A DNA stretch of 17,252 nucleotides from a virus. A program made the translations under genes and the position numbers. The notes below the pieces were generated by a model. That model saw nothing but the letters and a program-made list of their open reading frames with translations. It was not told the origin of the DNA and made no database searches. Below are positions 1-15,693 of the stretch, in pieces; position 1 is the stretch's first letter, and every line of letters starts with the position of its first letter. The DNA lies in UHGV virus genome UHGV-0812067; one strand, given 5' to 3'.

Positions 1-2
1 TG

Positions 3-482
3 TGTGCCTTGAGAGACGCCGACCAGACCCGACGTGCTGCGGAAGAGTGTAAGTTCAGCTTTAATGAGTCAGAATTAATCTCTTCTATAGGTATTGCACC
101 AGTTAAGCAAGAGATAATAAAGGATGAAGGAATAACTAAGCGGCAATATGAATTCAGAAGAGAATTATCTTCTGAAGAAATGCTTAGTGATGACGCTGAT
201 GAAAAATATGAGCCGCAGTTTTATATATCTGTTTATAATCCATCATGCCCACAAAAGATTATTGTTTGGTTTTTCAAAGACAATAAAAACACAATGGATT
301 TAAGTAATGAGGTCCTTGCTGGTAGAGCGTTCAAGTATTTAACTGGTGTTAATGAAAGTATTTTTGAAAATAAAATGAAAAAGTTTTTAAAGGTACAGTC
401 ATTTGAATCTTTTGATGAAAGGACAGATTCTAAATTTATAAAGAGTGGTGATATTTATTCCATTGATGTTCAACTCAGATAG
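3..482 (+). CDS. 3' portion of an AT-rich ORF of unknown function (5'-truncated by window edge)
   Basis: Frame is open from position 3 (no upstream in-frame stop) to TAG at 480-482. Coding DNA is strongly AT-rich after about position 60, unlike the GC-rich tail genes downstream. Protein is not recognisable to me. Confidence 0.4.
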   Translation, partial: CALRDADQTRRAAEECKFSFNESELISSIGIAPVKQEIIKDEGITKRQYEFRRELSSEEMLSDDADEKYEPQFYISVYNPSCPQKIIVWFFKDNKNTMDLSNEVLAGRAFKYLTGVNESIFENKMKKFLKVQSFESFDERTDSKFIKSGDIYSIDVQLR

Positions 483-501
483 TAATTAAAAATATTAGGT
501 T

Positions 502-557
502 CCCGCCACATCTTCTGCGATGTAAATAACTGACAAAGCAGATTTGGCGGGTTTTTT
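502..557 (+). terminator. putative intrinsic terminator (hairpin + T-tract)
   Basis: cccgcca (502-508) pairs with tggcggg (545-551), with inner pairing catc/gatg, followed by TTTTTT (552-557). The loop is long, so this is a weak call. Confidence 0.3.
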
Positions 558-572
558 GTATCCGGAGTTTAT

Positions 573-1901
573 ATGACGTGGAAAGACAGGCTTCAGGATG
601 CGTCATTTCGCGGCGTACCGTTTAAGGTTGAAGAAGAAAGTGCGGGAACCGGTCGCCGTGTGGAAACACACGAATATCCGAACCGCGACAAGCCCTATAC
701 CGAAGATCTGGGAAAAGTCACTTTCCGCCCGTCCATCACAGCTTATGTGGTGGGAGATGACTGCTTTGACCAGCGCGATCGCCTGATTGACGCGCTGAAT
801 AAACCCGGTCCCGGCACGCTTGTCCACCCGACATATGGTGAGCTGAAAGTCTGTGTTGACGGGGAAGTTCGGGTCAGCACATCGAAAAGTGAAGGGCGTA
901 TTGTCCGCTTTGACCTGAAGTTTGTCGAAGCGGGAGAACTCTCTTACCCCACATCAGGTGCGGCGACGGCGCAGACGCTGATGTCATCCTGTTCTGCACT
1001 GGATGACTGCATCAGTGACAGCTTCAGCGGTTTCAGTATCGATGGTGTGGCGGATTTCGTGCAGAACGACGTTATCGGTAATGCCAGCATAATGCTGGGG
1101 TATGTTTCTGATGCGATGAAAGTGGTGGATTCTGCCGTATCGGATGCCGCCAGGCTGTTGCAGGGGGATATCTCGGTACTTCTGCCGCCGCCATCGTCAG
1201 GCAAAAATTTCGTTGAGCAGGTGCAGAAAATGTGGCGTACCGGGAAACGCCTTTATGGTAACGCCAGCGACCTGGTCACCATGATCAAAACGCTTTCCGG
1301 TGTCAGCCTCGGCAGCGATCTGCAACCGCGCGGCATCTGGAAAACGGACAGTAAAACCACCGCCACGGCGACGCAGCAGCGTAACGTGGTTGCCAGCACC
1401 CTTCGTACGACCGCAATCAGCGAAGCGGCGTATGCCGTCACCCGATTGCCTGCGCCAACAACTTCCGCGGTGATGCAGAATGCCGCAGTGGGGCAGGCAA
1501 CAACACCTGCGCAGAGCACTGGCTGGCCTTCCGTCACGCATCCGGCACTGAACAATGCACCGGCGGTGAAAAACACGGTTGACCTGCCGACGTGGGAAGA
1601 ACTGACTGACATTCGCGACACACTGAATACGGCAATTGATAAGGAGTTGTCCCGTACAACCAGTGATGCGCTGTTTCTGGCGCTGCGCCGGGTGAAAGCA
1701 GATCTGAATGCGGATATCAACACGCGCCTTGAACAGTCTGCACGGATCATTCAGCGCACACCGGATGAGGTTTTACCCGCGCTGGTGCTGGCGGCGACCT
1801 GGTTTGATAACGCGGCGCGTGACGCGGACATTATCCGGCGTAATGCCATTACGCATCCCGGCTTTGTGCCGGTGATCCCTCTGAAGGTGCCAGTGCAATG
1901 A
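573..1901 (+). CDS. Mu gp43 (N)-like DNA circulation protein / tail-baseplate-associated protein
   Basis: ATG at 573 preceded by GGAG (564-567). N-terminus MTWKDRLQDASFRGVPFKV... is typical of the Mu-type DNA circulation protein N-terminal domain. Stop overlaps the next start (ATGA at 1898-1901). Confidence 0.8.
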   Translation: MTWKDRLQDASFRGVPFKVEEESAGTGRRVETHEYPNRDKPYTEDLGKVTFRPSITAYVVGDDCFDQRDRLIDALNKPGPGTLVHPTYGELKVCVDGEVRVSTSKSEGRIVRFDLKFVEAGELSYPTSGAATAQTLMSSCSALDDCISDSFSGFSIDGVADFVQNDVIGNASIMLGYVSDAMKVVDSAVSDAARLLQGDISVLLPPPSSGKNFVEQVQKMWRTGKRLYGNASDLVTMIKTLSGVSLGSDLQPRGIWKTDSKTTATATQQRNVVASTLRTTAISEAAYAVTRLPAPTTSAVMQNAAVGQATTPAQSTGWPSVTHPALNNAPAVKNTVDLPTWEELTDIRDTLNTAIDKELSRTTSDALFLALRRVKADLNADINTRLEQSARIIQRTPDEVLPALVLAATWFDNAARDADIIRRNAITHPGFVPVIPLKVPVQ

Positions 1902-2977
1902 ACGACAATGTCACGCTACGGATAAATGGCCGGGAGTGGAATGGCTGGACATCGGTGCGCATCGGTGCCGGTATTGAACGGCTGGCGCGGGATTTCAGTG
2001 TGGAGATCACCCGCCAGTGGCCGGGAGATGAGGGTATTACCACGCTTCAGCCGCGCATTAAAAACGGTTCAAAAGTGGAGGTGCTGATTGGTGATGAGCT
2101 GGTGATCACCGGCTGGGTGGAGGCGACGCCCGTTCGTTACGATGCCCGTTCGGTCAGCACCGGTATTGCCGGACGCAGTCTGACCGCTGACTTGATTGAC
2201 TGTGCAGCCGAACCGACACAGTTTAACGGACGATCGCTGGTACAGATTGCGCAGGCGCTTGCTGCGCCTTTCGGCATTGAGGTGGTGAACAACGGTGCGC
2301 CGTCGGGTGTTATTCCTGATGTCCAGCCTGATCACGGTGAAACGGTGATTGAGGTAATCAACAAAATACTCGGTCAGCAGCAGGCACTGGCTTACGACGA
2401 CCCGCACGGCAGGCTGGTGATTGGCGGTATTGGCTCAACGCGGGCACATACTGCGCTGGTACTCGGGGAAAACATCCTTTCCTGCGATACGGAGAAGAGT
2501 ATCCGGGAGCGGTTTTCTGTTTACCAGGTGGCGGGGCAGCGTGCCGGAAACGACGATGATTTCGGTGAGGCCACCACCACCGCGCTGCGGGCCCGCACAG
2601 AGGACGCATTTATTGCCCGTTACCGTCCGATGTATATCAGGCAGACAGGGCAGGCTACGGGGGCAGGCTGTATTGCCCGTGCGGACTTTGAAGCCCGACA
2701 ACGGGCGGCGCGGACGGATGAAACCACCTATGTGGTGCAGGGCTGGCGACAGGGTAACGGTACGCTGTGGCAGCCCAACCAGCGGGTGATTGTCTTTGAT
2801 CCGGTCTGTGGTTTCGACAATACCGAACTGCTTGTTTCGGAAGTCACGTTTACTCAGGACCAGAACGGCACCCTGACGGAAATCCGTGTCGGCCCGCCTG
2901 ATGCTTATCTGCCTGAACCCGAAGCCCCCGGCGCGCGGAAAAAGAAAAAAGCCAGAGTACAGGAGGACCCGTTCTGA
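1898..2977 (+). CDS. Mu gp44 (P)-like baseplate hub protein
   Basis: 359-aa ORF coupled to neighbours by overlapping stop/start. Position and size match the Mu/P2 gpD-type hub in the conserved baseplate gene order. Confidence 0.75.
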   Translation: MNDNVTLRINGREWNGWTSVRIGAGIERLARDFSVEITRQWPGDEGITTLQPRIKNGSKVEVLIGDELVITGWVEATPVRYDARSVSTGIAGRSLTADLIDCAAEPTQFNGRSLVQIAQALAAPFGIEVVNNGAPSGVIPDVQPDHGETVIEVINKILGQQQALAYDDPHGRLVIGGIGSTRAHTALVLGENILSCDTEKSIRERFSVYQVAGQRAGNDDDFGEATTTALRARTEDAFIARYRPMYIRQTGQATGAGCIARADFEARQRAARTDETTYVVQGWRQGNGTLWQPNQRVIVFDPVCGFDNTELLVSEVTFTQDQNGTLTEIRVGPPDAYLPEPEAPGARKKKKARVQEDPF

Positions 2978-3525
2978 TGAAGGCGATTGAAACCATACAG
3001 CGACAACTCCTCGGCCTGATTGGGCGGGCGGTGGTGAAAAGCATCAGTGCCGCCACGAAATGTCAGACCGTGGATGTGTCCCTGATTGCCGGTGAACCCA
3101 AAGCCGGGGTTGAACATCTTGAACCCTACGGTTTTACCGCAAGGGCAAACAGCGGTGCGGAAGCGGTGGTGTTGTTTCCGGATGGCGACCGTTCTCATGC
3201 GGTGGTTGTTACGGTGTCGGACCGGCGCTACCGCCTGAAAGGGCTGCAGACGGGTGAGGTGGCTGTCTATGACGATCAGGGGCAGTCCGTGACGCTGGCC
3301 CGGGAGGGGATCGTGGTGGACGGTGCAGGTAAAACGATCACGTTTCGCAATGCGCCTAAGGCACGTTTTGAAATGGACCTGGAAGTGACCGGACAGGTGA
3401 AAGACCTGTGCGACTCCACCGGCACCACCATGTCAGCGATGCGGCTTGCCTATAACGGGCATCGTCACAGAGAGAACGGTCAGGGCAGTAACACCGACAA
3501 ACCTGATAAAGTGATGGAGGCATGA
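2977..3525 (+). CDS. Mu gp45 / gpV-like baseplate spike protein
   Basis: 182-aa ORF with AGGAGGA upstream (2961-2967) and start overlapping the upstream stop. Sequence and size are typical of phage baseplate assembly protein V. Confidence 0.75.
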   Translation: MKAIETIQRQLLGLIGRAVVKSISAATKCQTVDVSLIAGEPKAGVEHLEPYGFTARANSGAEAVVLFPDGDRSHAVVVTVSDRRYRLKGLQTGEVAVYDDQGQSVTLAREGIVVDGAGKTITFRNAPKARFEMDLEVTGQVKDLCDSTGTTMSAMRLAYNGHRHRENGQGSNTDKPDKVMEA

Positions 3526-3950
3526 TGGAACTGTGGCTGACGGTGAACGGTAAACGCACCTGCGCCAGCGCACAACTGGATCCGCTGACCCGCGCCGTGG
3601 TGATTTCCCTGTTTACCTGGCGGCGGGCGGAGCCTGATGACAACGCCGAAGTCCCGATGGGATGGTGGGGGGATACCTGGCCTGCGGTACAGAATGACCG
3701 TTACGGCTCCCGACTGTGGCTGCTTCAGCGCAGCAAACTGACCAATCAGCTGGTGCAGACGGTAAGGGGGTATATCCGCGAATGCCTGCAATGGATGATT
3801 GATGACGGCGTGGTGTCCCGTATTGATCTGGATATCCGCCGCACCGGGATTAATGAACTGGGTAACAGTATCACTCTCTGGCGTCGTGACGGACCGGTAA
3901 TGATTTCTTTTGATGATCTGTGGAGTGCGATAACGCATGGCGGACAGTGA
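3525..3950 (+). CDS. Mu gp46 / gpW-like baseplate wedge protein
   Basis: ORF track starts at 3522 (ATGATG); the second ATG at 3525 has better spacing from GGAGG (3516-3520). About 140 aa, consistent with the GP46/gpW family by position and size. Confidence 0.7.
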   Translation: MELWLTVNGKRTCASAQLDPLTRAVVISLFTWRRAEPDDNAEVPMGWWGDTWPAVQNDRYGSRLWLLQRSKLTNQLVQTVRGYIRECLQWMIDDGVVSRIDLDIRRTGINELGNSITLWRRDGPVMISFDDLWSAITHGGQ

Positions 3951-4995
3951 ATTTCAGCGCCCGACGCTGGCAGAAAATATCAGTATGCTCCGTAACGATT
4001 TATTCGCCAGGCTGGACGTCAGCGACACGCTCCGGCGCATGGATGAAGACGTGCGGGCAAAGGTGTATGCGGCGGCGCTGCATACGGTTTACGGTTACAT
4101 CGATTATCTGGCAATGAACATGCTGCCTGATCTGTGCGATGAGTCCTGGCTGGCGCGACATGCTGCGATGAAACGGTGTCCGCGCAAGGGGGCCACGGCT
4201 GCCAGCGGGTATATGCGCTGGGAAGGTGTCAGCGATGGCCTGAAGGTGACCGCCGGGAGTGTTATTCAGCGCGATGACCTGGTTCAGTACACGGCAACTG
4301 CCGATGCAACCAGCACTGGTGGTGTCCTGCGTGTGCCGATCACTTGCTCAACTACAGGCGCGGTCGGTAACGCTGACGACGGTACGGCATTAATCCTGGT
4401 CACACCGGTGAATGGTCTGCCGTCTTCCGGTGTGGCTGACACCCTGACAGGCGGATTTGATACTGAAGAGCTGGAAACGTGGCGCGCCCGCGTCATTGAG
4501 CGGTATTACTGGACGCCTCAGGGCGGGGCTGACGGGGACTATGTCGTCTGGGCTAAAGAAGTGCCCGGCATTACCCGCGCATGGACATACCGTCACTGGA
4601 TGGGAACGGGAACTGTCGGTGTGATGATTGCCAGCAGTGACCTGATTAATCCCATTCCGGAAGAATCAACGGAAACGGCAGCAAGACAACATATCGGGCC
4701 ACTGGCCCCGGTGGCAGGCTCTGATTTGTATGTATTCAGGCCGGTGGCACATACGGTGGATTTTCATATCCGCGTGACGCCGGACACACCGGAAATACGG
4801 GCTGCCATTACCGCGGAGTTGCGTTCGTTCCTGCTGCGTGATGGTTATCCGCAGGGAGAACTGAAGGTATCGCGTATCAGTGAAGCGATTTCCGGTGCGA
4901 ACGGGGAATACAGCCATCAGTTGCTTGCACCGGTGGACAATATCTCCATTGCAAAAAATGAACTGGCGGTACTGGGGACGATTTCATGGACGTGA
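3937..4995 (+). CDS. Mu gp47 / baseplate J-like protein
   Basis: 352-aa ORF overlapping the upstream gene by 14 nt. Size and position match baseplate J-like wedge proteins (gpJ of P2, gp47 of Mu, JayE of e14). Confidence 0.8.
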
Positions 4996-5570
4996 CAAAC
5001 GATGATTACATCCGTCTGTTGTCGGCACTGTTGCCCCCCGGTCCGGCGTGGTCAGCCAGCGATCCGGCGATTGCCGGTGCGGCACCGTCATTAACCCGCG
5101 TTCATCAGCGTGCGGATGCCCTGATGCGGGAGCTGGATCCGCGCACCACCACCGAACTGATAAATCGCTGGGAGCGTCTGTGCGGCCTGCCGGATGAATG
5201 TATTCCGGCGGGAACGCAGACCCTTCGCCAGCGTCAGCAACGACTGGATGCGAAGGTTAACCTGGCGGGCGGCATCAACGAGGATTTTTATCTTGCACAG
5301 CTTGCTGCCCTGGGCAGACCAGACGCTACCATCACGCGATACGACAAAAGCACGTTCATCTGCTCATCTGCCTGTACTGACGCGGTGAATGCGCCGGAAT
5401 GGCGGTATTACTGGCAGGTCAACATGCCAGCCGCCACCAACACCACCTGGATGACATGTGGCGATCCCTGTGATTCCGCGCTGCGTATCTGGGGCGACAC
5501 CGTTGTCGAGTGTGTGCTTAACAAACTCTGCCCGTCGCATACCTACGTAATTTTTAAATATCCGGAGTAA
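4986..5570 (+). CDS. Mu gp48 / gpI-like tail protein (YmfQ/DUF2313-type)
   Basis: 194-aa ORF overlapping the upstream gene by 10 nt and lying immediately upstream of the tail-fibre gene, as in Mu/P2/e14-type modules. Confidence 0.75.
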
Positions 5571-5573
5571 TCC

Positions 5574-6536
5574 ATGCATCGTATAGACACGAAAACCGCG
5601 CAGAAGGATAAGTTCGGCGCGGGTAAGAACGGTTTTACCCGTGGTAACCCCCAGACCGGCACACCTGCCACCGATCTGGATGATGACTACTTTGACATGT
5701 TGCAGGAAGAACTTTGTAGCGTGGTGGAGGCCTCCGGTGCCAGCCTGGAGAAAGGGCGGCATGACCAGCTGCTTACCGCACTTCGTGCGCTGCTGTTAAG
5801 CCGCAAGAATCCGTTTGGCGATATCAAATCGGACGGCACGGTGGAAACGGCTCTCGAAAACCTTGGTTTGGGAGATGCCAACGGATATGTGGGCCGAAAG
5901 GTTGCGGAAAAATGGATAACGACATCTGGGACATATACGCCTACACCGGGAACAAAAAAAATCAGGGTAACGATAATTGGCGGAGGCGGCGGCGGGGGCA
6001 GTGGGCAAACAAACTCTGCTGGATACGTATCTGCCGGGTCTGGTGGAGGTGCCGGTGGTGTGGCTCGTAAAACAATTGACGTTACCAGTGTTTCATCAGT
6101 GTCCGTAACCATCGGTTCAGGCGGTAATCCAGGTGTCTTCTCTTCAAATCAGCCTGGTGATGGTGGTACCACAAGTTTTGGCTCCTACATGACAGCTGGC
6201 GGGGGTGGCCGAGGAAATAACTGTGGCTCGGTAGCATTCGGTGTTACTCAGTTAATTGCGAACGGTGGCGGCGGGGTTGGTTCAGGAGGTGATATCAACA
6301 CCATCGGCGGCTCTGGCGGCCCGGCGATAATTCTGGGACAGGGGTACACCAGCGGCGGCGGTGGCAACTCAATAGTAGCTGGAGGTGGACAGCCTATTGC
6401 AACAACGTCATCAATGAGTGGAATTGATGGCTCATATGGTTCTGGTGGGTCAGGCGCTTACATTCTGGCCAGCGGTAGTGAAAAAAATGGCGGACGTGGT
6501 GGTGATGGCGTTTGTATCGTTGAGGAGTATGCATAA
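5574..6536 (+). CDS. tail fibre protein, expressed form in this orientation (constant N-terminus + glycine-rich variable C-terminus)
   Basis: ATG at 5574 with GGAG (5563-5566). N-terminus [40 protein letters not shown]... is the conserved phage tail-fibre N-terminal domain. From about residue 98 the protein is extremely Gly/Ser-rich. The inversion crossover site lies inside the gene at 5851-5876. Confidence 0.85.
5851..5876. repeat. invertase crossover site, left (gix/cix/pix/hix-like, 12-2-12 layout)
   Basis: ctctcgaaaacc tt ggtttgggagat: two half-sites resembling the invertase half-site consensus (..TC..AAACC) around a central TT. The 11 bp ttggtttggga (5863-5873) is the exact reverse complement of 7677-7687. 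Confidence 0.7.
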
Positions 6537-6943
6537 TGAATAACATTTATGCTGTTGTTGAAAATGGCGTGGTGATCAACATCGTCGTCTGGGATGGGAA
6601 ATCGGAATGGCAACCGGTAACTGGGGAGGCTGTTTCTTGTTCTGCTCAGGTTGGTATCGGCTGGTTGTATGATGGAAGTAATTTCACCCAGCCACCAACA
6701 CCCGAGCAGACTCCAGAAGAATTAGCAGCGGCAAACATGGCTAAAGCTGCATCTGAGTATGAACGTGCCAGCGTAGTCATTGTAGCGCTAAATGAGCAGA
6801 TCGAAGACGAGGACTACGCAGGGACTACGGAAGAGGCCGTGAAATCAGAATTGGCCGCATGGACTGACTATCGTAAACAGCTTCGCGCTTACATTAAGGC
6901 CGGGGATGGCAGCCAGACACTACCATCCTTTGTAATGATTTAA
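6536..6943 (+). CDS. tail fibre assembly/chaperone-like protein for the current fibre form
   Basis: ATG overlaps the fibre stop (TAATG at 6534-6538) with GAGGAG upstream (6522-6527). C-terminus ...AWTDYRKQLRAYIKA resembles the Tfa C-terminal W-x-x-YR motif. The N-terminal part is not classic Tfa. Confidence 0.55.
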   Translation: MNNIYAVVENGVVINIVVWDGKSEWQPVTGEAVSCSAQVGIGWLYDGSNFTQPPTPEQTPEELAAANMAKAASEYERASVVIVALNEQIEDEDYAGTTEEAVKSELAAWTDYRKQLRAYIKAGDGSQTLPSFVMI

Positions 6944-7323
6944 ACTGGTCGTGTAGGCCACTCTATATCGGGAGCCGTGCTGGTATCAGTTCGCATCACG
7001 GCAACCCGATAATCTTCCCACGAGGTTAATCTAGCAGCTTCTTCATCAGTCGCTATTCCTGCGGTTACTGCATATTGAAGAGGTGATATTGCAAAAGTTG
7101 CTGCCGCCAGCAGCTCTGCTTTTTTCTGATTTGCAATCGCTACTTGCTGATCATGAGTCAGTGGCGCAGGGTCGCTCAGTTCGGGAAAACCACTTTCGTT
7201 TGCAATAATTACCTTTCCTCCCGCCTGCCCAATCACCAATTCTGACCAGTAGTCGTCGGTAATCTCCACCTGGCTATCACTCATCCGCCCAACCGTAAAT
7301 CCAATCTCTGTGGAATAAAACAT
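6940..7323 (-). CDS. tail fibre assembly protein (Tfa), alternative-orientation copy
   Basis: C-terminus ...ATDEEAARLTSWEDYRVAVMRTDTSTAPDIEWPTRPV matches the conserved Tfa C-terminal motif. Its stop codon overlaps the convergent + strand stop within TTTAAA (6940-6943). Confidence 0.8.
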   Translation of the reverse strand: MFYSTEIGFTVGRMSDSQVEITDDYWSELVIGQAGGKVIIANESGFPELSDPAPLTHDQQVAIANQKKAELLAAATFAISPLQYAVTAGIATDEEAARLTSWEDYRVAVMRTDTSTAPDIEWPTRPV

Positions 7324-7685
7324 TACGCACTCCCCATAGCCATATATTTAAAAGAAAAAGATCCGTTCAGATTTGCCCCTGCGGCATCCTTTCCGTAAAT
7401 TGTCACAACCGAACCTGATTCAGGAATGGCGGCATAACTAACAACGCCTGAGCCAATATCAGTCGGGATAAAAGTAAAACCAGTGCTGGGGTAAGCCAAT
7501 GGAAGAGTAAAGCTCAGTACGCCGTTAACAAAATTTCCAGATCCACTGCCCTCCATTATTCTACGGTTTCCTGCAATCACTATTGAAGTAAATACGTTTG
7601 AAGCGCCAGCGTATGTGAAGTTTGACATGTCTGGAATTTGACCAGTTCCTGTACCCACATCTTTTTTGGCTGCTGTTCCCAAACC
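7323..7685 (-). CDS. silent alternative tail-fibre C-terminal segment (Sv'-like), lacks its own N-terminus in this orientation
   Basis: Minus-strand frame is open from the stop at 7692-7694 through the crossover site to TAA at 7323-7325. It reads ...KVGLGTAAKKDVGTGTGQ..., with GLG encoded by the same ggtttggga as NLGLGD in the + fibre, in the same frame. The TTG 'start' in the ORF track is probably not a real start. Confidence 0.65.
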   Translation of the reverse strand, partial: GLGTAAKKDVGTGTGQIPDMSNFTYAGASNVFTSIVIAGNRRIMEGSGSGNFVNGVLSFTLPLAYPSTGFTFIPTDIGSGVVSYAAIPESGSVVTIYGKDAAGANLNGSFSFKYMAMGSA

Positions 7686-7699
7686 AACCTTTCAAATAT
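7674..7699. repeat. invertase crossover site, right
   Basis: tgttcccaaacc aa cctttcaaatat: the left half-site matches the half-site consensus well, the right half is degenerate. It carries the 11-bp inverted repeat tcccaaaccaa (7677-7687). Confidence 0.65.
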
Positions 7700-7726
7700 T
7701 TTTCTGAATCAGGTGATATTTCGCCT

Positions 7727-7753
7727 CTTCTCCTGTTTTTACAACAGGAGAAG
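7727..7753 (+). promoter_or_regulatory. hairpin sequestering the invertase Shine-Dalgarno
   Basis: cttctcctgt (7727-7736) and acaggagaag (7744-7753) form a perfect 10-bp inverted repeat with loop ttttaca. The right arm contains AGGAG (7746-7750), the RBS for the ATG at 7759. Confidence 0.4.
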
Positions 7754-7758
7754 CACTC

Positions 7759-8322
7759 ATGATTTACGGGTATGTTCGTGTATCAACAAATCATCAGGAT
7801 ACAGAGTTGCAACGTCTTGCACTTGAGTCAGCTGGCTGTGAGCGAATTTATGAAGAATATGCCAGTGGCAGAACAGCTAATCGCCCTGTGTTAAAGGAAT
7901 TAATTACGGTGATGAAAAGTGGAGATGAGTTGATTGTCTGGAAGTTAGATCGGATAGGGAGAAATGTGCTGCATGCGCTATTGATGTTTCAAAATCTGCA
8001 CGAAAAAGGTGTTAATTTTCGGAGTATTACAGATGGCGTAGACCTGAAAACAGCAAGTGGTCGCTATAATTTCCGTAATATTCTTTCTGCTGCGCAGTAT
8101 GAATCTGATTTGAATAGCGAGCGAACTTTAGCTGGTTTGGCTATTGCCAGATCCAAAGGCCGGATTGGTGGGCGTAGACCGAAGTTTAGCGACGAGCAGT
8201 GGCAACAGATGGGAGCGCTCATAGCGGCAGGGAAATCACGGCGTTATGTTGCACGTATCTATAACGTTGGGCTATCAACCCTATATAAACGATTTCCTGT
8301 TACTGGCATTCAAACGAAATAA
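7759..8322 (+). CDS. serine DNA invertase (Gin/Cin/Pin/Hin family resolvase-type recombinase)
   Basis: MIYGYVRVSTNHQDTELQ... contains the catalytic Ser motif (YVRVS), VWKLDRIGR, GRIGGRRPK and a C-terminal HTH ...GLSTLYKRFP. It is 187 aa and sits adjacent to the invertible segment. Confidence 0.9.
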   Translation: MIYGYVRVSTNHQDTELQRLALESAGCERIYEEYASGRTANRPVLKELITVMKSGDELIVWKLDRIGRNVLHALLMFQNLHEKGVNFRSITDGVDLKTASGRYNFRNILSAAQYESDLNSERTLAGLAIARSKGRIGGRRPKFSDEQWQQMGALIAAGKSRRYVARIYNVGLSTLYKRFPVTGIQTK

Positions 8323-8775: not shown

Positions 8776-9873
8776 TCAAGGGGTCTTATTTCTGCTCCTT
8801 TGGAGCTCTTCAAAACGATTATGTAAAGATTTCGGATACAGTTCGGTATATACCTGCCATAGCACGTTTAATGAACGATGCCCTGTAACCTGGGCTACTT
8901 CCTCAATACTAAAACCAGCCTCAAATAAGCGACTTGCCCCTTCTCTACGCAAATCATGGTATCGCAGATCCTTAATACCTAATTTGCTTCTTACCCTCTG
9001 AAATCCCGCAGTAACAGAAGTGCTGTTATATGGAAAAATGAATTCCGATTTTTTGGGCTGTCGTTGGACGATATCCCAGGCTTCCCCAAGCAAGGCTACT
9101 TTCATGTGGTTGCCTTCCTTTTTGCGTGGATCTTTCCTGTCTCTTACGAGTATAGATTTTTGTTCCTGGTCGAGATCTTCCCATCGTAACCGGCATACTT
9201 CTCCGATTCGCATACAGGACCACACAGAAAATTTGAGGATATCAACGAACGGAATTTTTGAGCATTTATGAGTAGATCGTTGTTGAAGGCCTTCAATGAG
9301 CATGTCCAGTTCATCAGATGCTGGTCTACGATTACGACGGTTTGATTTACCAATCAAACCAAGTTTAAGTAGATATGGACGAGCACTTTTCGCCGGGTTT
9401 GATGTGTAATTAATTCCGTATACAGGTTTGGCCGCATCCAGAACACTGCCAAGATAACTAACATCGTGGCTGACTGTTGCTGGACCTGCGCCAGCGTTGT
9501 TTCTTAGCCTGCAATGTTCAATTACGTCATTTTCTGTCAGTTCAGATAGTTTGATCGCGGAGATGTCACTATCCATAAGCAGTTCCAGCACATATCTTTT
9601 AGTACGGCCTGCTTTACCTCCGGCATTTGGGTCATTTAAATATTTGTGTAGTAAGTCACGGACTGTAAGTCCGTCAACTGCATTTGATGATGGAATGCCA
9701 TATAGATCTAATTCCATCACTTTCTGTGTGCCCCATGTTTTGGCATGAGCATGTTTAGGGAATGTTTTGCTTTCCCTGTAAGTGATAACACCTTTTTCTT
9801 TGATAATCACATTACAGCGATAGCGTGGTGTGCCATCGGATTTTAGTCGTTTCTCTATGTTATAGTACGCCAT
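8776..9873 (-). CDS. tyrosine site-specific recombinase (phage integrase)
   Basis: 365 aa. The C-terminal catalytic region has the R...HxxR...Y arrangement (...LRYHDLRREGASRL...VTGHRSLNVLWQVYTELYP). GAGG lies 7 nt upstream of the ATG at 9873. Confidence 0.9.
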   Translation of the reverse strand: MAYYNIEKRLKSDGTPRYRCNVIIKEKGVITYRESKTFPKHAHAKTWGTQKVMELDLYGIPSSNAVDGLTVRDLLHKYLNDPNAGGKAGRTKRYVLELLMDSDISAIKLSELTENDVIEHCRLRNNAGAGPATVSHDVSYLGSVLDAAKPVYGINYTSNPAKSARPYLLKLGLIGKSNRRNRRPASDELDMLIEGLQQRSTHKCSKIPFVDILKFSVWSCMRIGEVCRLRWEDLDQEQKSILVRDRKDPRKKEGNHMKVALLGEAWDIVQRQPKKSEFIFPYNSTSVTAGFQRVRSKLGIKDLRYHDLRREGASRLFEAGFSIEEVAQVTGHRSLNVLWQVYTELYPKSLHNRFEELQRSRNKTP

Positions 9874-9892
9874 TACACGACCTCGTTATTTC

Positions 9893-9929
9893 GGGTTCCC
9901 ATAAAACGTGGGAACCTGTGCGGGAACCT
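9893..9929. repeat. cluster of GGGAACC(T) motifs upstream of the integrase gene (candidate arm-type or regulatory binding sites)
   Basis: gggttccc (9893-9900, inverted), gggaacct (9910-9917) and gggaacct (9922-9929), lying 20-56 bp upstream of the integrase start. Confidence 0.45.
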
Positions 9930-10105
9930 AATGCGAGAAAAATAGCCTGAAATGTTCAAAAATGCACGATAATCATGAAACACAAAAAATTAATCAAACC
10001 AGCGTGATGCCTGAAAAAACTGGTGTTTACTGGAATTCTCGGTTTAGCATTGCTCCTATGCTCGATAGGATGTACCGTTTTTGAAAAACAAGTAGTTATA
10101 CACTT

Positions 10106-10319: not shown

Positions 10320-10892
10320 ATGTTTTGCGAAGAAAAAGTAGCTCAAATGGCTGCATACCTACTTCTTAAGAGAGGTGGGCGCATGGCATATCTGAAATTG
10401 ATGAAGCTGCTCTATCTGTCTAACCGCCAGTCGATTTTGAAGCATGGCAGGATGATCGGCGAAGATAGCCTTTACTCTATGAAATTTGGACCAGTCATGT
10501 CGAATACGCTGAACTTGATTCGCGGTAAGGCTGAAGGCATTGGTGACTACTGGTACAACTTGATAGAGACGAACGGGCATAATGTATCGTTGCGTTCAGA
10601 TCCGAGGGAAATGGATGCAGACGAGGTCTTTGATGAATTGAGTCGTGCAGATATCCGGATTTTAGATGAAATCTATTCTCGGTATGGGCATATGAACCGA
10701 TTTGATCTCGCAAATATGACGCATTTAGAAAGCGTTTGTCCAGAGTGGCACGATCCTGGCAATTCTCGTAAGCCTATAGACCTGAAAGAAATGCTGATCA
10801 GTGAGGGTAAAAGCGAGGATGAGGCTAATCGCATAATTGGCAAAATGGAAGAATCTCAGAAACTTAAGGAATTTTCTTTGCAATTATCATGA
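10320..10892 (+). CDS. Panacea-domain (DUF4065, PanA/SocA/GepA-like) protein, putative antitoxin or sensor component
   Basis: ATG at 10320 with GAGG (10308-10311, 8-nt spacer). Residues about 20-70 (...AYLKLMKLLYLSNRQSILKHGRMIGEDSLYSMKFGPVMSNT...) fit the Panacea signature (KLqKLLYL ... w/y-GPV). Coding DNA is low-GC relative to flanking phage genes. Confidence 0.75.
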   Translation: MFCEEKVAQMAAYLLLKRGGRMAYLKLMKLLYLSNRQSILKHGRMIGEDSLYSMKFGPVMSNTLNLIRGKAEGIGDYWYNLIETNGHNVSLRSDPREMDADEVFDELSRADIRILDEIYSRYGHMNRFDLANMTHLESVCPEWHDPGNSRKPIDLKEMLISEGKSEDEANRIIGKMEESQKLKEFSLQLS

Positions 10893-11308
10893 CGGATTAT
10901 CAGCCATACAGGAAAGGAACTGTGCTTGCCCCAACTGGACCATGCAATCATCTTCATGTGATTTGTAATGATCCTGTTTATTACCCCGTTAACGATTGTT
11001 ATTGTGTTTTAGTTGTTAATATTTCTAGTATCAAGGATGGTGTCCCCCACGATCCGTCTTGCGTCTTGAATTCTGGTGATCATCGCTTTATCAAGCATCC
11101 AAGTTATGTTGTTTACGCTGAAGCTATAATTTGGCGAGTGGATAACATGGTTAGAAAGCAGCGATCGGGTGAGATTTCTGTTCATGATGATATGCCAGAA
11201 GCTACATTCAATAGAATTCTGGACGGTTTTGATATCTCTGATGAAGTTACGCCAAAGAACCTTAAATTTAAAAATAAATATTGCGTATCATCTATTGATG
11301 ATGAGTAA
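10889..11308 (+). CDS. hypothetical 139-aa protein translationally coupled to the Panacea-domain gene, candidate toxin/effector
   Basis: ATGA overlap at 10889-10892 with the upstream stop. Protein MTDYQPYRKGTVLAPTGPCNHLHVICNDPVYYPVNDCYC... has Cys/His-rich motifs and I recognise no family. Lowest GC in the window. Confidence 0.65.
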   Translation: MTDYQPYRKGTVLAPTGPCNHLHVICNDPVYYPVNDCYCVLVVNISSIKDGVPHDPSCVLNSGDHRFIKHPSYVVYAEAIIWRVDNMVRKQRSGEISVHDDMPEATFNRILDGFDISDEVTPKNLKFKNKYCVSSIDDE

Positions 11309-15228: not shown

Positions 15229-15693
15229 TCTCGGTTCCTCAACGCCTCTGCACCGGCGCTAAAAAGTTAGTTTCTCCATACACAACAGAGAAGGGCACCT
15301 GCATTGGTCGGCGGCTTGCAGAGACCGCTTTCTTTTTGCCCGGGTGGATTGGGTTATGAGCCCGTCGTCCGGTGATGCTCTTCTCTGTTTTGTAAAAAGG
15401 ACGGTACCAGCCGGAAGCAAGGGTACAAACTGGTACCGCCAGGACTACACACAGCATAAAGTTGTGGTGCCGGGTGCCTCCCGGTGCCTGGCGAAGGTTG
15501 CACACCAGGCGGGTGGGTATCCACAGAAGGTCGACTGTCAGCCTCAACCTTAACCCGCGTGCGCTGAGCCGCATTCACCACAACGCTAAGGATTCTCTCT
15601 GGTTGAAAATACTTAGCTGTTATGTGCCTGTCTTTTCACCACTTCAGGCTCGGTGGTATCCTTTTAAGCCCGTATACATAAAAGGAAAATCAA

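What the first reader, a model, noticed from the sequence alone, without database searches (positions are those of the whole stretch)
1..572. AT-rich foreign-looking ORF with its own terminator, immediately upstream of the baseplate operon
The window opens inside an ORF whose composition changes abruptly from GC-rich (first ~60 bp) to AT-rich, ending 90 bp before the DNA circulation gene with a hairpin and T-run in between. In Mu-like tail modules the tape-measure gene normally precedes this position directly, so this looks like an inserted accessory gene (moron) or a mosaic junction. The product is not recognisable to me.
Basis: seen in the sequence. Interest (0 to 1): 0.4.

Follow-up and report, generated by a model that had tools for sequence, protein, structure and literature searches.

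The report
Truncated phage accessory gene with adaptor
The AT-rich ORF is an optional accessory ("moron"-type) gene of an SfV-like temperate phage, encoding a small exported protein of unknown function; its odd GC-rich start is not biology but leftover 454 sequencing adaptor at the end of the assembled contig.

Summary
Window 36-482 is the last 148 codons of a 164-codon gene, followed by a strong hairpin (502-551) and a T-run, 90 bp before the DNA-circulation gene.

The GC-rich start covers only bases 1-35. Bases 1-20 match the published Roche 454 "B-Rapid" adaptor 20/20. The 35-mer is absent from every collection searched. The real gene starts AT-rich and encodes a signal peptide (MRIFVFFISALLSFNLAA|EEC).

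In about 85 complete E. coli genomes and in phage SKA5, the intact gene sits between the tape-measure and DNA-circulation genes. SfV has 99% identical flanks but lacks it. At least four unrelated AT-rich genes occupy the same slot in other E. coli prophages.

Homologues at 54-61% identity hold the same slot in Kosakonia, Kluyvera and Atlantibacter prophages, with dN/dS about 0.1-0.2. The family is tiny and has no Pfam domain. The AlphaFold model is confident (pLDDT 90) but has no convincing PDB relative.

Verdict: an accessory gene for a periplasmic protein, already in databases as "hypothetical". A role in superinfection exclusion or envelope modification is inferred, not shown. No separate promoter could be demonstrated.

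The parts
1..20 (+). Residual Roche 454 'B-Rapid' library adaptor (3' 20 nt): artefact, not phage DNA
   Evidence: 20/20 match to CCTATCCCCTGTGTGCCTTGAGAGACGHC with H=C. No match in E. coli genomes, viral, genome or metagenome contigs.
21..35 (+). 15 nt of unexplained non-phage sequence (GACCAGACCCGACGT) between adaptor and gene; probably also synthetic or chimeric
   Evidence: Found nowhere else in the window or in the first 13 fetched loci, L001-L013. Absent from the searched papers. All homologous sequences begin to align at base 36.
36..482 (+). Codons 17-164 plus stop of a 164-codon accessory gene for a secreted ~16.5-kDa protein (PHROG 8976). The first 16 codons, which make up most of the signal peptide, and the upstream region are missing from the window.
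   Evidence: 99.9% identical to E. coli strain 165 WP_072716633.1 and to phage SKA5. GC 32%. dN/dS 0.11-0.20 among orthologues. AlphaFold2 pLDDT 89.7.
502..557 (+). Intrinsic-terminator-like element: 7-bp G+C-rich basal stem (502-508 / 545-551) with inner helices, then T6 (552-557)
   Evidence: dG -21.2 kcal/mol, z -3.45. Hairpin plus T-run is found at the same place in all slot variants with a + strand cargo and at the empty SfV site.
546..572 (+). Right boundary of the variable slot. Similarity to SfV/SfII/SfI resumes here, and the stretch includes the GGAG ribosome-binding site (564-567) of the DNA-circulation gene.
   Evidence: Matches to SfV, SfII and SfI start at query base 546. Sequence comparison.
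573..1901 (+). DNA circulation protein gene (Mu gp43/N-like), first gene of the baseplate block; included as context
   Evidence: PF07157 DNA_circ_N; the identical protein is found on 23 contigs.

Best explanation
Window 36-482 is the 3' nine-tenths of a dispensable accessory (moron-type) gene of an SfV-like temperate phage. That phage type has HK97-like head genes and Mu-like contractile-tail genes.

Shown:
- The gene is cut by the end of an assembled contig that still carries 454 adaptor sequence (bases 1-20, probably 1-35).
- The complete gene occupies a variable cargo slot between the tape-measure gene and the DNA-circulation gene.
- It is AT-rich and under purifying selection.
- It is followed by an intrinsic-terminator-like hairpin.
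- It encodes a 164-aa precursor with a Sec-type signal peptide (positive n-region, 11-13 hydrophobic residues, A-x-A cleavage site) and two invariant cysteines.

Inferred:
- The mature ~146-aa protein is exported to the periplasm and disulfide-bonded. It therefore cannot be a virion part.
- It acts on the cell envelope of the lysogen or infected cell. The most likely role is superinfection exclusion or protection against incoming phage tails; modifying an envelope property is the alternative.
- The terminator keeps any prophage-state transcription of the gene from running into the baseplate genes. Q-antiterminated late transcription would read through it.
For: Artefact:
- Adaptor identity 20/20.
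- The 25-mer at bases 11-35 is absent from genome contigs, the 35-mer from viral contigs, and the junction 29-mer from metagenome contigs. E. coli genomes match the window only from base 36.
- Many database copies of this protein are 'partial', so contigs often break in this gene.

Accessory gene:
- The intact 164-aa gene lies between tape measure and DNA circulation in E. coli strain 165, phage SKA5 and 10 further contigs.
- It is absent from SfV despite 99.5% and 98.9% identical flanking proteins.
- About 85 of roughly 1,095 E. coli genomes with this junction carry it.
- Four other unrelated AT-rich cargo genes occur at the same slot: a 176-aa TM-anchored protein, a bPH_1 protein, a TM-anchored OB-fold on the opposite strand, and a 225-aa lipoprotein.
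- GC is 31% against 52-58% in the flanks.

Real, selected gene:
- pN is far below pS in all 15 pairs; dN/dS is 0.11-0.20 in the 7 pairs where dS is not saturated.
- Orthologues at 54-61% identity occupy the same slot in Kosakonia, Kluyvera, Atlantibacter and metagenomic prophages whose flanking proteins are 67-78% identical.

Export:
- A signal-peptide pattern is present in 16 of the 18 family members examined, with two invariant Cys.

Fold:
- The model is a confident compact alpha/beta domain (pLDDT 89.7, pTM 0.84).

Terminator.

Precedent:
- Moron-encoded envelope proteins inside tail operons can be superinfection-exclusion factors, for example HK97 gp15 (PMC3594210).
Against: - No sigma-70 consensus promoter was found upstream of the gene in any of five orthologous loci: 0 found against 2-3 expected in shuffles. 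By eye there is only a perfect TATAAT and a TGnCATAAT in the E. coli version, and these are not conserved in orthologues. Expression from the repressed prophage is therefore unproven, and the gene might be made only as part of the late operon.
- A terminator-like hairpin also exists at the empty SfV site, so it is not specific to the cargo.
- Long residence in the slot, with divergence only somewhat faster than the tail genes, is unusual for a freshly acquired moron.
- Bases 21-35 are not explained by the published adaptor.
- The signal peptide was judged by rules, not by a dedicated predictor.
Confidence: 0.75

Rival explanations
1. The gene is not prophage-expressed. It is co-transcribed with the late tail operon and works during lytic growth from the periplasm. 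For example, it could mask a receptor or envelope component so that progeny are not wasted on lysing cells or debris (as T5 Llp does), or it could exclude secondary infection late in the cycle.
For: No consensus promoter upstream in five orthologous loci. There is no terminator between the tape-measure stop and the gene, so late transcripts must run through it. It is in the same orientation as the tail genes and stays positionally linked to them over 22-33% protein divergence of the flanks.
Against: The strong terminator directly downstream makes most sense for a transcript that must not continue into the baseplate genes. Another cargo of the same slot is antisense to the operon and must have its own promoter. 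The AT-rich upstream region carries a perfect -10 hexamer in the E. coli version.
Confidence: 0.2
2. It is a lysogenic-conversion factor that benefits the host bacterium and is unrelated to phage-phage conflict. Examples would be a periplasmic inhibitor or binding protein (compare lysozyme inhibitors, Bor, SodC) that aids survival in an animal host.
Against: All structural matches are below the level that supports homology. The family is found only inside this one phage slot and never as a chromosomal gene. That pattern points to a phage-centred function.
Confidence: 0.2
3. The window start is a genuine mosaic or fusion junction. A GC-rich upstream gene, such as the tape-measure C-terminus, runs in frame into the AT-rich ORF.
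For: The frame stays open across bases 3-482.
Against: Only 11 codons are involved. Bases 1-20 are a synthetic 454 adaptor. The 35-mer exists in no searched collection. In all 20+ related loci the tape-measure gene ends with its own stop, and the ORF has its own RBS, ATG and signal peptide.
Confidence: 0.03
4. It is a structural or assembly protein of the tail, for example a tape-measure or baseplate-associated factor.
Against: SfV, SfII, SfI and SfIV, which were isolated as phages (PMC3851460 and PMC3636060), lack it with near-identical tail genes. A cleavable signal peptide is incompatible with cytoplasmic tail assembly. The slot holds unrelated genes in other phages.
Confidence: 0.03

Closest known systems
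HK97 gene 15 moron (gp15, superinfection exclusion; Juhala et al. 2000; Cumby et al. 2012; reviewed in PMC3594210)
   Same: A single small gene inserted inside a tail operon next to the tape-measure gene. It is absent from close relatives, its G+C differs from its neighbours, a terminator follows it, and the product is targeted to the cell envelope.
   Different: No sequence or structural similarity. gp15 is an inner-membrane protein related to YebO, whereas this protein is a soluble periplasmic alpha/beta domain with a cleavable signal peptide. gp15 lies upstream of the tape-measure gene; this gene lies downstream. A promoter and prophage expression are documented for gp15 and not shown here.
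Periplasmic or lipoprotein exclusion factors that act on incoming tails (T4 Spackle inhibiting gp5 lysozyme; TP-J34 Ltp acting on the tape-measure protein; T5 Llp / phi80 Cor blocking FhuA) - from my own knowledge
   Same: Small exported phage proteins that work outside the cytoplasm. This is a plausible functional analogy for a periplasmic protein encoded beside the tape-measure gene.
   Different: No homology detected in any search. The function here is untested.
Accessory-gene / defence hotspots of temperate phages (P2/P4 hotspots, from my own knowledge; phage hyper-variability hotspots, bioRxiv 10.1101/2024.10.15.618418, listed and not read)
   Same: A fixed position flanked by conserved core genes, where unrelated cargo genes replace one another among otherwise near-identical phages.
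   Different: The cargos here are single small genes, mostly envelope-targeted. None matches a PADLOC defence model. I found no paper describing this particular slot, although the literature search was limited.
PHROG 8976 / NCBI 'hypothetical protein' WP_072716633.1
   Same: This is the same protein: E 6.8e-107 over its full length, and identical over residues 17-164.
   Different: Those entries carry no functional annotation.

Membership tests
Moron (Juhala/Hendrix definition as summarised in PMC3594210) | Extra DNA present in one phage and absent from closely related phages at the same position | tested here: met
   SfV has a 45-bp spacer where E. coli 165 and SKA5 have 684 bp. Flanking proteins are 99.5% and 98.9% identical.
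Moron (Juhala/Hendrix definition as summarised in PMC3594210) | G+C content different from surrounding genes | tested here: met
   31-32% against 52-58%.
Moron (Juhala/Hendrix definition as summarised in PMC3594210) | Own transcription terminator | tested here: met
   Hairpin 502-551 plus T6, dG -21.2, z -3.45. It is conserved in orthologous loci. Caveat: a similar terminator is also present at the empty site.
Moron (Juhala/Hendrix definition as summarised in PMC3594210) | Own promoter | tested here: inconclusive
   Zero consensus sigma-70 sites upstream in L001, L018, L020, L023 and L026. By eye, only TATAAT and TGnCATAAT in L001 5854-5952. The upstream region is not in the window.
Moron (Juhala/Hendrix definition as summarised in PMC3594210) | Expression from the repressed prophage | not testable with these tools
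   Needs transcript data from a lysogen.
Sec-dependent (signal peptidase I) exported proteins | N-terminal positive n-region, 10-15 residue hydrophobic h-region, small residues at -3 and -1 | tested here: met
   MRIFVFFISALLSFNLAA|EEC. The pattern holds in 16 of the 18 family members examined, with peak Kyte-Doolittle 2.2-3.2. This is a rule-based check; no dedicated predictor was available. There is no lipobox.
Known superinfection-exclusion / anti-phage defence proteins | Sequence or fold homology to a characterised member | tested here: not met
Known superinfection-exclusion / anti-phage defence proteins | Reduces infection by a challenging phage | not testable with these tools
   Needs plating assays.
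Tape-measure protein (C-terminal part) | Continuous reading frame with, and homology to, the upstream PhageMin_Tail gene | tested here: not met
   The tape-measure gene ends at its own stop 100 bp upstream. The ORF has a separate RBS and ATG and no TMP similarity.
Roche 454 Rapid-library adaptor B (contaminant) | Exact identity to the adaptor's 3' end at a sequence terminus | tested here: met
   Window 1-20 matches the last 20 nt of CCTATCCCCTGTGTGCCTTGAGAGACGHC. Chance expectation is about 4^-19 per position.

The most novel reading that the evidence does not exclude
The protein is the founding member of a new fold family of periplasmic superinfection-exclusion factors. It would intercept the tape-measure or hub proteins of incoming SfV/Mu-type contractile tails.

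In the same reading, the tape-measure / DNA-circulation junction of SfV-like prophages is an undescribed hotspot where envelope-acting anti-phage genes are swapped. Five or more cassettes are present in about 400 of 5,426 E. coli genomes.
Probability: 0.25. Interest if true: 0.55.

Novelty: new member of a known kind. Interest (0 to 1): 0.3.

Why it matters
**Practical point.** The record behind this window carries untrimmed 454 adaptor at its end. That adaptor creates a false ORF start and a false "composition switch". Anyone annotating it would call a truncated or fused protein.

**Biological point.** The gene is one of several interchangeable AT-rich cargo genes at a fixed slot in the tail module of a very common E. 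coli, Shigella and Salmonella prophage type. Most of these cargos are envelope-targeted.

If these cargos are exclusion or conversion factors, the slot would be a compact place to mine for new envelope-level anti-phage functions. This would matter for phage therapy host-range predictions. None of this has been tested, and single-gene morons of unknown function are commonplace.

Tried and rejected
**Searches for the first 35 bases.** The window and the loci held at that point (L001-L013), E. coli genomes, IMG/VR viral contigs, GTDB genome contigs and JGI metagenome contigs all gave nothing. Only the literature search identified bases 1-20 as adaptor. Bases 21-35 were not found in any paper.

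**IS end or prophage-host junction.** I considered this for the GC-rich start. It was rejected because the sequence is absent from all genomes and matches the adaptor.

**Function by homology.**
- Pfam, NCBIfam and PADLOC: no hits.
- PHROGs: only an unknown-function family.
- Profile search of 1.84 billion representative proteins: only 12 hits, all the same small family.
- Profile against PDB sequences: nothing meaningful.

**Function by structure.**
- Foldseek against PDB: no significant hit.
- BFVD: a single weak hit to an uncharacterised virome protein.
- The afdb50 library was unavailable.

**Other checks.**
- Rfam on 1-700 and on the whole window: nothing.
- Promoter scans on five loci: no consensus sites.
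- The scan tool's small 'terminator' at 548-564 was rejected. It is an artefact of the T-run; the real stem is 502-508 / 545-551.
- Literature searches for a description of this slot or gene found nothing specific.

Full report
**1. What is in the sequence**

- Frame 3 is open from window base 3 to a TAG at 480-482. The other two forward frames are full of stops.
- GC is 63% for bases 1-35, 32% for 36-482 and 57% for the baseplate genes 573-5570.
- The DNA-circulation gene (PF07157) starts at 573, 90 bp after the stop.
- Within that spacer, bases 502-551 fold into a hairpin. It has a 7-bp G+C-rich basal stem (CCCGCCA/TGGCGGG) and inner helices, followed by T6 at 552-557.
- The hairpin has dG -21.2 kcal/mol and z -3.45; 1 of 200 shuffles folds as well.

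**2. The GC-rich start is an artefact**

- Megablast of window 1-1200 found 1,103 E. coli records and 12 phage records. Every match that includes the ORF starts exactly at base 36, at 99.2-99.9% identity.
- A sensitive search with bases 1-70 again matched only 36-70.
- The first 35 bases, or parts of them, are absent from the rest of the window, from the 13 loci held at that point (L001-L013), from IMG/VR viral contigs, from 185,579 species-representative genomes and from JGI metagenome contigs.
- A full-text search for the first 18 bases found two papers. Both give the Roche 454 'B-Rapid' adaptor as CCTATCCCCTGTGTGCCTTGAGAGACGHC (PMC4034615; bioRxiv 10.1101/421339).
- Window 1-20 (TGTGTGCCTTGAGAGACGCC) equals its last 20 nucleotides, with H=C.
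- The window therefore begins at the end of an assembled contig that kept library adaptor.
- Bases 21-35 (GACCAGACCCGACGT) are not explained by the published adaptor and were not found anywhere. Because they directly abut the adaptor, I take them to be linker or chimeric sequence, but this is not shown.
- The 11 'codons' from bases 3-35 and the TTG start at base 9 are not real.
- Many database copies of this protein are flagged 'partial', so draft contigs commonly break inside this AT-rich gene.

**3. The real gene**

- In E. coli strain 165 (L001), the tape-measure gene ends at 5853. A 164-codon ORF runs 5953-6447, and the DNA-circulation gene starts at 6538. Phage SKA5 has the same layout.
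- Window base 36 corresponds to the first base of codon 17. Residues 17-164 are identical to the window's translation.
- The missing N-terminus is MRIFVFFISALLSFNL. With the following AA|EEC it makes a classical Sec signal peptide.
- Of the 18 family members examined, 16 show a basic residue near the start, an 11-residue hydrophobic peak (Kyte-Doolittle 2.2-3.2) and small residues at -3/-1. There is no lipobox.
- Two cysteines are invariant across the 13 aligned full-length members, at positions 21 and 87 of the precursor. That is consistent with a periplasmic disulfide.
- The gene is under purifying selection. pN is well below pS in all 15 pairwise comparisons; dN/dS is 0.11-0.20 in the 7 pairs where dS is not saturated, and 0.14 for the least diverged pair.

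**4. Where it sits, and how variable the site is**

- SfV, SfII and SfI align with the window only from base 546. SfIV aligns from 585.
- SfV's tape-measure and DNA-circulation proteins are 99.5% and 98.9% identical to those flanking the gene in E. coli 165. Yet SfV has only a 45-bp spacer there, with its own hairpin plus T-run. The gene is therefore dispensable for making virions of this phage type.
- An evenly spaced sample of the roughly 1,090 E. coli genomes that match the junction shows these states:
  - empty (the commonest);
  - this gene (84-87 genomes);
  - a 176-aa protein with an N-terminal membrane anchor (L014; 178 genomes);
  - a bPH_1 protein (L015; 28 genomes);
  - a membrane-anchored tRNA_anti-like OB-fold protein on the opposite strand (L016; 72 genomes);
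  - a 225-aa lipoprotein (L017; 55 genomes).
- All the cargos are AT-rich (31-42% GC against 50-56% in the flanks). Every + strand cargo is followed by a hairpin plus T-run just before the conserved CCGGAGTTTATATG start region of the DNA-circulation gene.
- I inspected one example of each alternative cargo. The genome counts are for the gene sequence and were not individually checked for position.

**5. Not a recent arrival**

- Homologues with only 54-61% protein identity lie in exactly the same slot in prophages of Kosakonia pseudosacchari, Kluyvera sichuanensis, an Atlantibacter MAG and several metagenomic contigs.
- In those prophages the tape-measure and DNA-circulation proteins are 67-78% identical to the E. 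coli ones. GC there is again low, 33-36%.
- The gene has therefore lived in this slot through considerable divergence of the phage lineage, diverging somewhat faster than the tail genes, and has been lost or replaced sporadically.

**6. What the protein is**

- The family is very small. There are 20 clusters at 90% identity among 5.8 billion proteins. There are 12 representatives at 50% identity among 1.84 billion proteins using a profile. It occurs in 2 of 185,579 species-representative genomes.
- All named members are 'hypothetical protein' from E. coli, Shigella sonnei or Salmonella enterica.
- Pfam, NCBIfam and PADLOC give nothing. PHROG 8976, of unknown function, matches end to end.
- AlphaFold2 with the 16-sequence alignment gives a confident single alpha/beta domain: pLDDT 89.7, pTM 0.84, seven strands and four to five helices.
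- Foldseek against PDB finds nothing with E below 1e-3. A PDB sequence-profile search finds nothing.
- BFVD gives one hit, an uncharacterised 180-aa virome protein (TM 0.66, E 1.9e-4, 14% identity).
- The afdb50 library was not available.
- The fold cannot be assigned to a known family with these tools.

**7. How it most likely works**

Shown:
- It is an optional, selected, AT-rich gene in a cargo slot of the tail module.
- Its product carries an export signal.
- A strong intrinsic-terminator-like hairpin follows it.

Inferred:
- The product is a soluble, disulfide-bonded periplasmic protein, so it cannot be a virion component.
- It acts at the cell envelope.
- Four of the five cargos at the slot are envelope-targeted. 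The classic tail-operon moron, HK97 gene 15, is a superinfection-exclusion protein (PMC3594210). By analogy, the most likely role is blocking a periplasmic step of infection by other phages. Host-benefit lysogenic conversion is the main alternative.
- The terminator would stop prophage-state transcripts from entering the baseplate genes, while Q-modified late transcription reads through. This last step rests on general knowledge of lambdoid late operons.

Weak point:
- No consensus sigma-70 promoter was found upstream in five orthologous loci.
- The -10-like hexamers visible in the E. coli version are not conserved.
- Expression only with the late operon therefore remains a live rival.

**8. 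Comparison with known things, and novelty**

- The locus meets three of the five moron criteria: presence/absence between close relatives, deviant GC, and a terminator. The promoter criterion is inconclusive, and prophage expression is untestable here.
- It works like a moron, but it is not homologous to any characterised moron product.
- The gene is already present in public records as a hypothetical protein and as a PHROG.
- I rate it a new (uncharacterised) member of a known kind.
- The slot polymorphism is a modestly interesting by-product. I found no paper that describes it, but the searchable library is incomplete.

**9. Context of the window**

- From base 36 to the window's end the window is collinear with phage SKA5; 73% of the query is covered, at 97% identity.
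- It has the excised-phage gene order: baseplate, tail fibre with invertase, DinI, integrase, a dusA-like attP stretch, then early genes and a cI-like repressor.
- This fits a phage or virome assembly rather than an integrated prophage.

Noticed in passing
window 21-35: Fifteen bases (GACCAGACCCGACGT) between the 454 adaptor and the first phage base match nothing in any collection or paper searched. They are probably a library linker or a chimeric read end.
   Followed up: partly
window 153-176: A 9-bp inverted repeat (TTCAGAAGA...TCTTCTGAA) lies inside the ORF. The scan flagged it as a minus-strand terminator-like site. It falls in the conserved YEFRRELS coding stretch and is probably coincidental.
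   Followed up: no
L014:546-1076, L015:510-887, L016:487-933 (minus strand), L017:545-1222 (E. coli prophages, same slot): Four unrelated AT-rich cargo genes replace this gene between the tape-measure and DNA-circulation genes: a TM-anchored 176-aa protein, a bPH_1 protein, a TM-anchored tRNA_anti-like OB-fold and a 225-aa lipoprotein. They occur in 178, 28, 72 and 55 of 5,426 E. coli genomes respectively. This may be an accessory-gene hotspot.
   Followed up: partly
L003 (SfV) 4969-5013 and the equivalent position in all slot variants: A G+C-rich hairpin plus T-run sits just upstream of the DNA-circulation gene even when the slot is empty. A terminator is therefore a constant feature inside this late operon.
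   Followed up: partly
window 5574-8322: The tail-fibre gene has a glycine-rich domain (PF21722). It is followed by fibre-tip and assembly genes on opposite strands (6536-6943 +, 6940-7323 -, 7323-7682 -) and a Pin/Gin-type invertase (7759-8322). This looks like an invertible host-range switch.
   Followed up: no
window 8776-10000: An integrase on the minus strand is followed by a stretch that, in E. coli genomes, matches the prophage junction with the tRNA-dihydrouridine synthase gene dusA. The window therefore shows the excised (attP) arrangement of a dusA-integrating phage.
   Followed up: partly
window 10320-11308: A SocA/Panacea-domain antitoxin gene (10320-10892) overlaps by 4 bp a 139-codon ORF with no Pfam match (10889-11308). 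This is a likely PanA-type toxin-antitoxin pair next to attP.
   Followed up: no
window 15229-15693: About 460 bp between the RdgC gene and the next plus-strand ORF has no convincing ORF and no Rfam match.
   Followed up: no
protein cluster of P0001: A large share of deposited copies of this 164-aa protein are 'partial'. Draft assemblies frequently break inside this AT-rich gene, as the window's source did.
   Followed up: no
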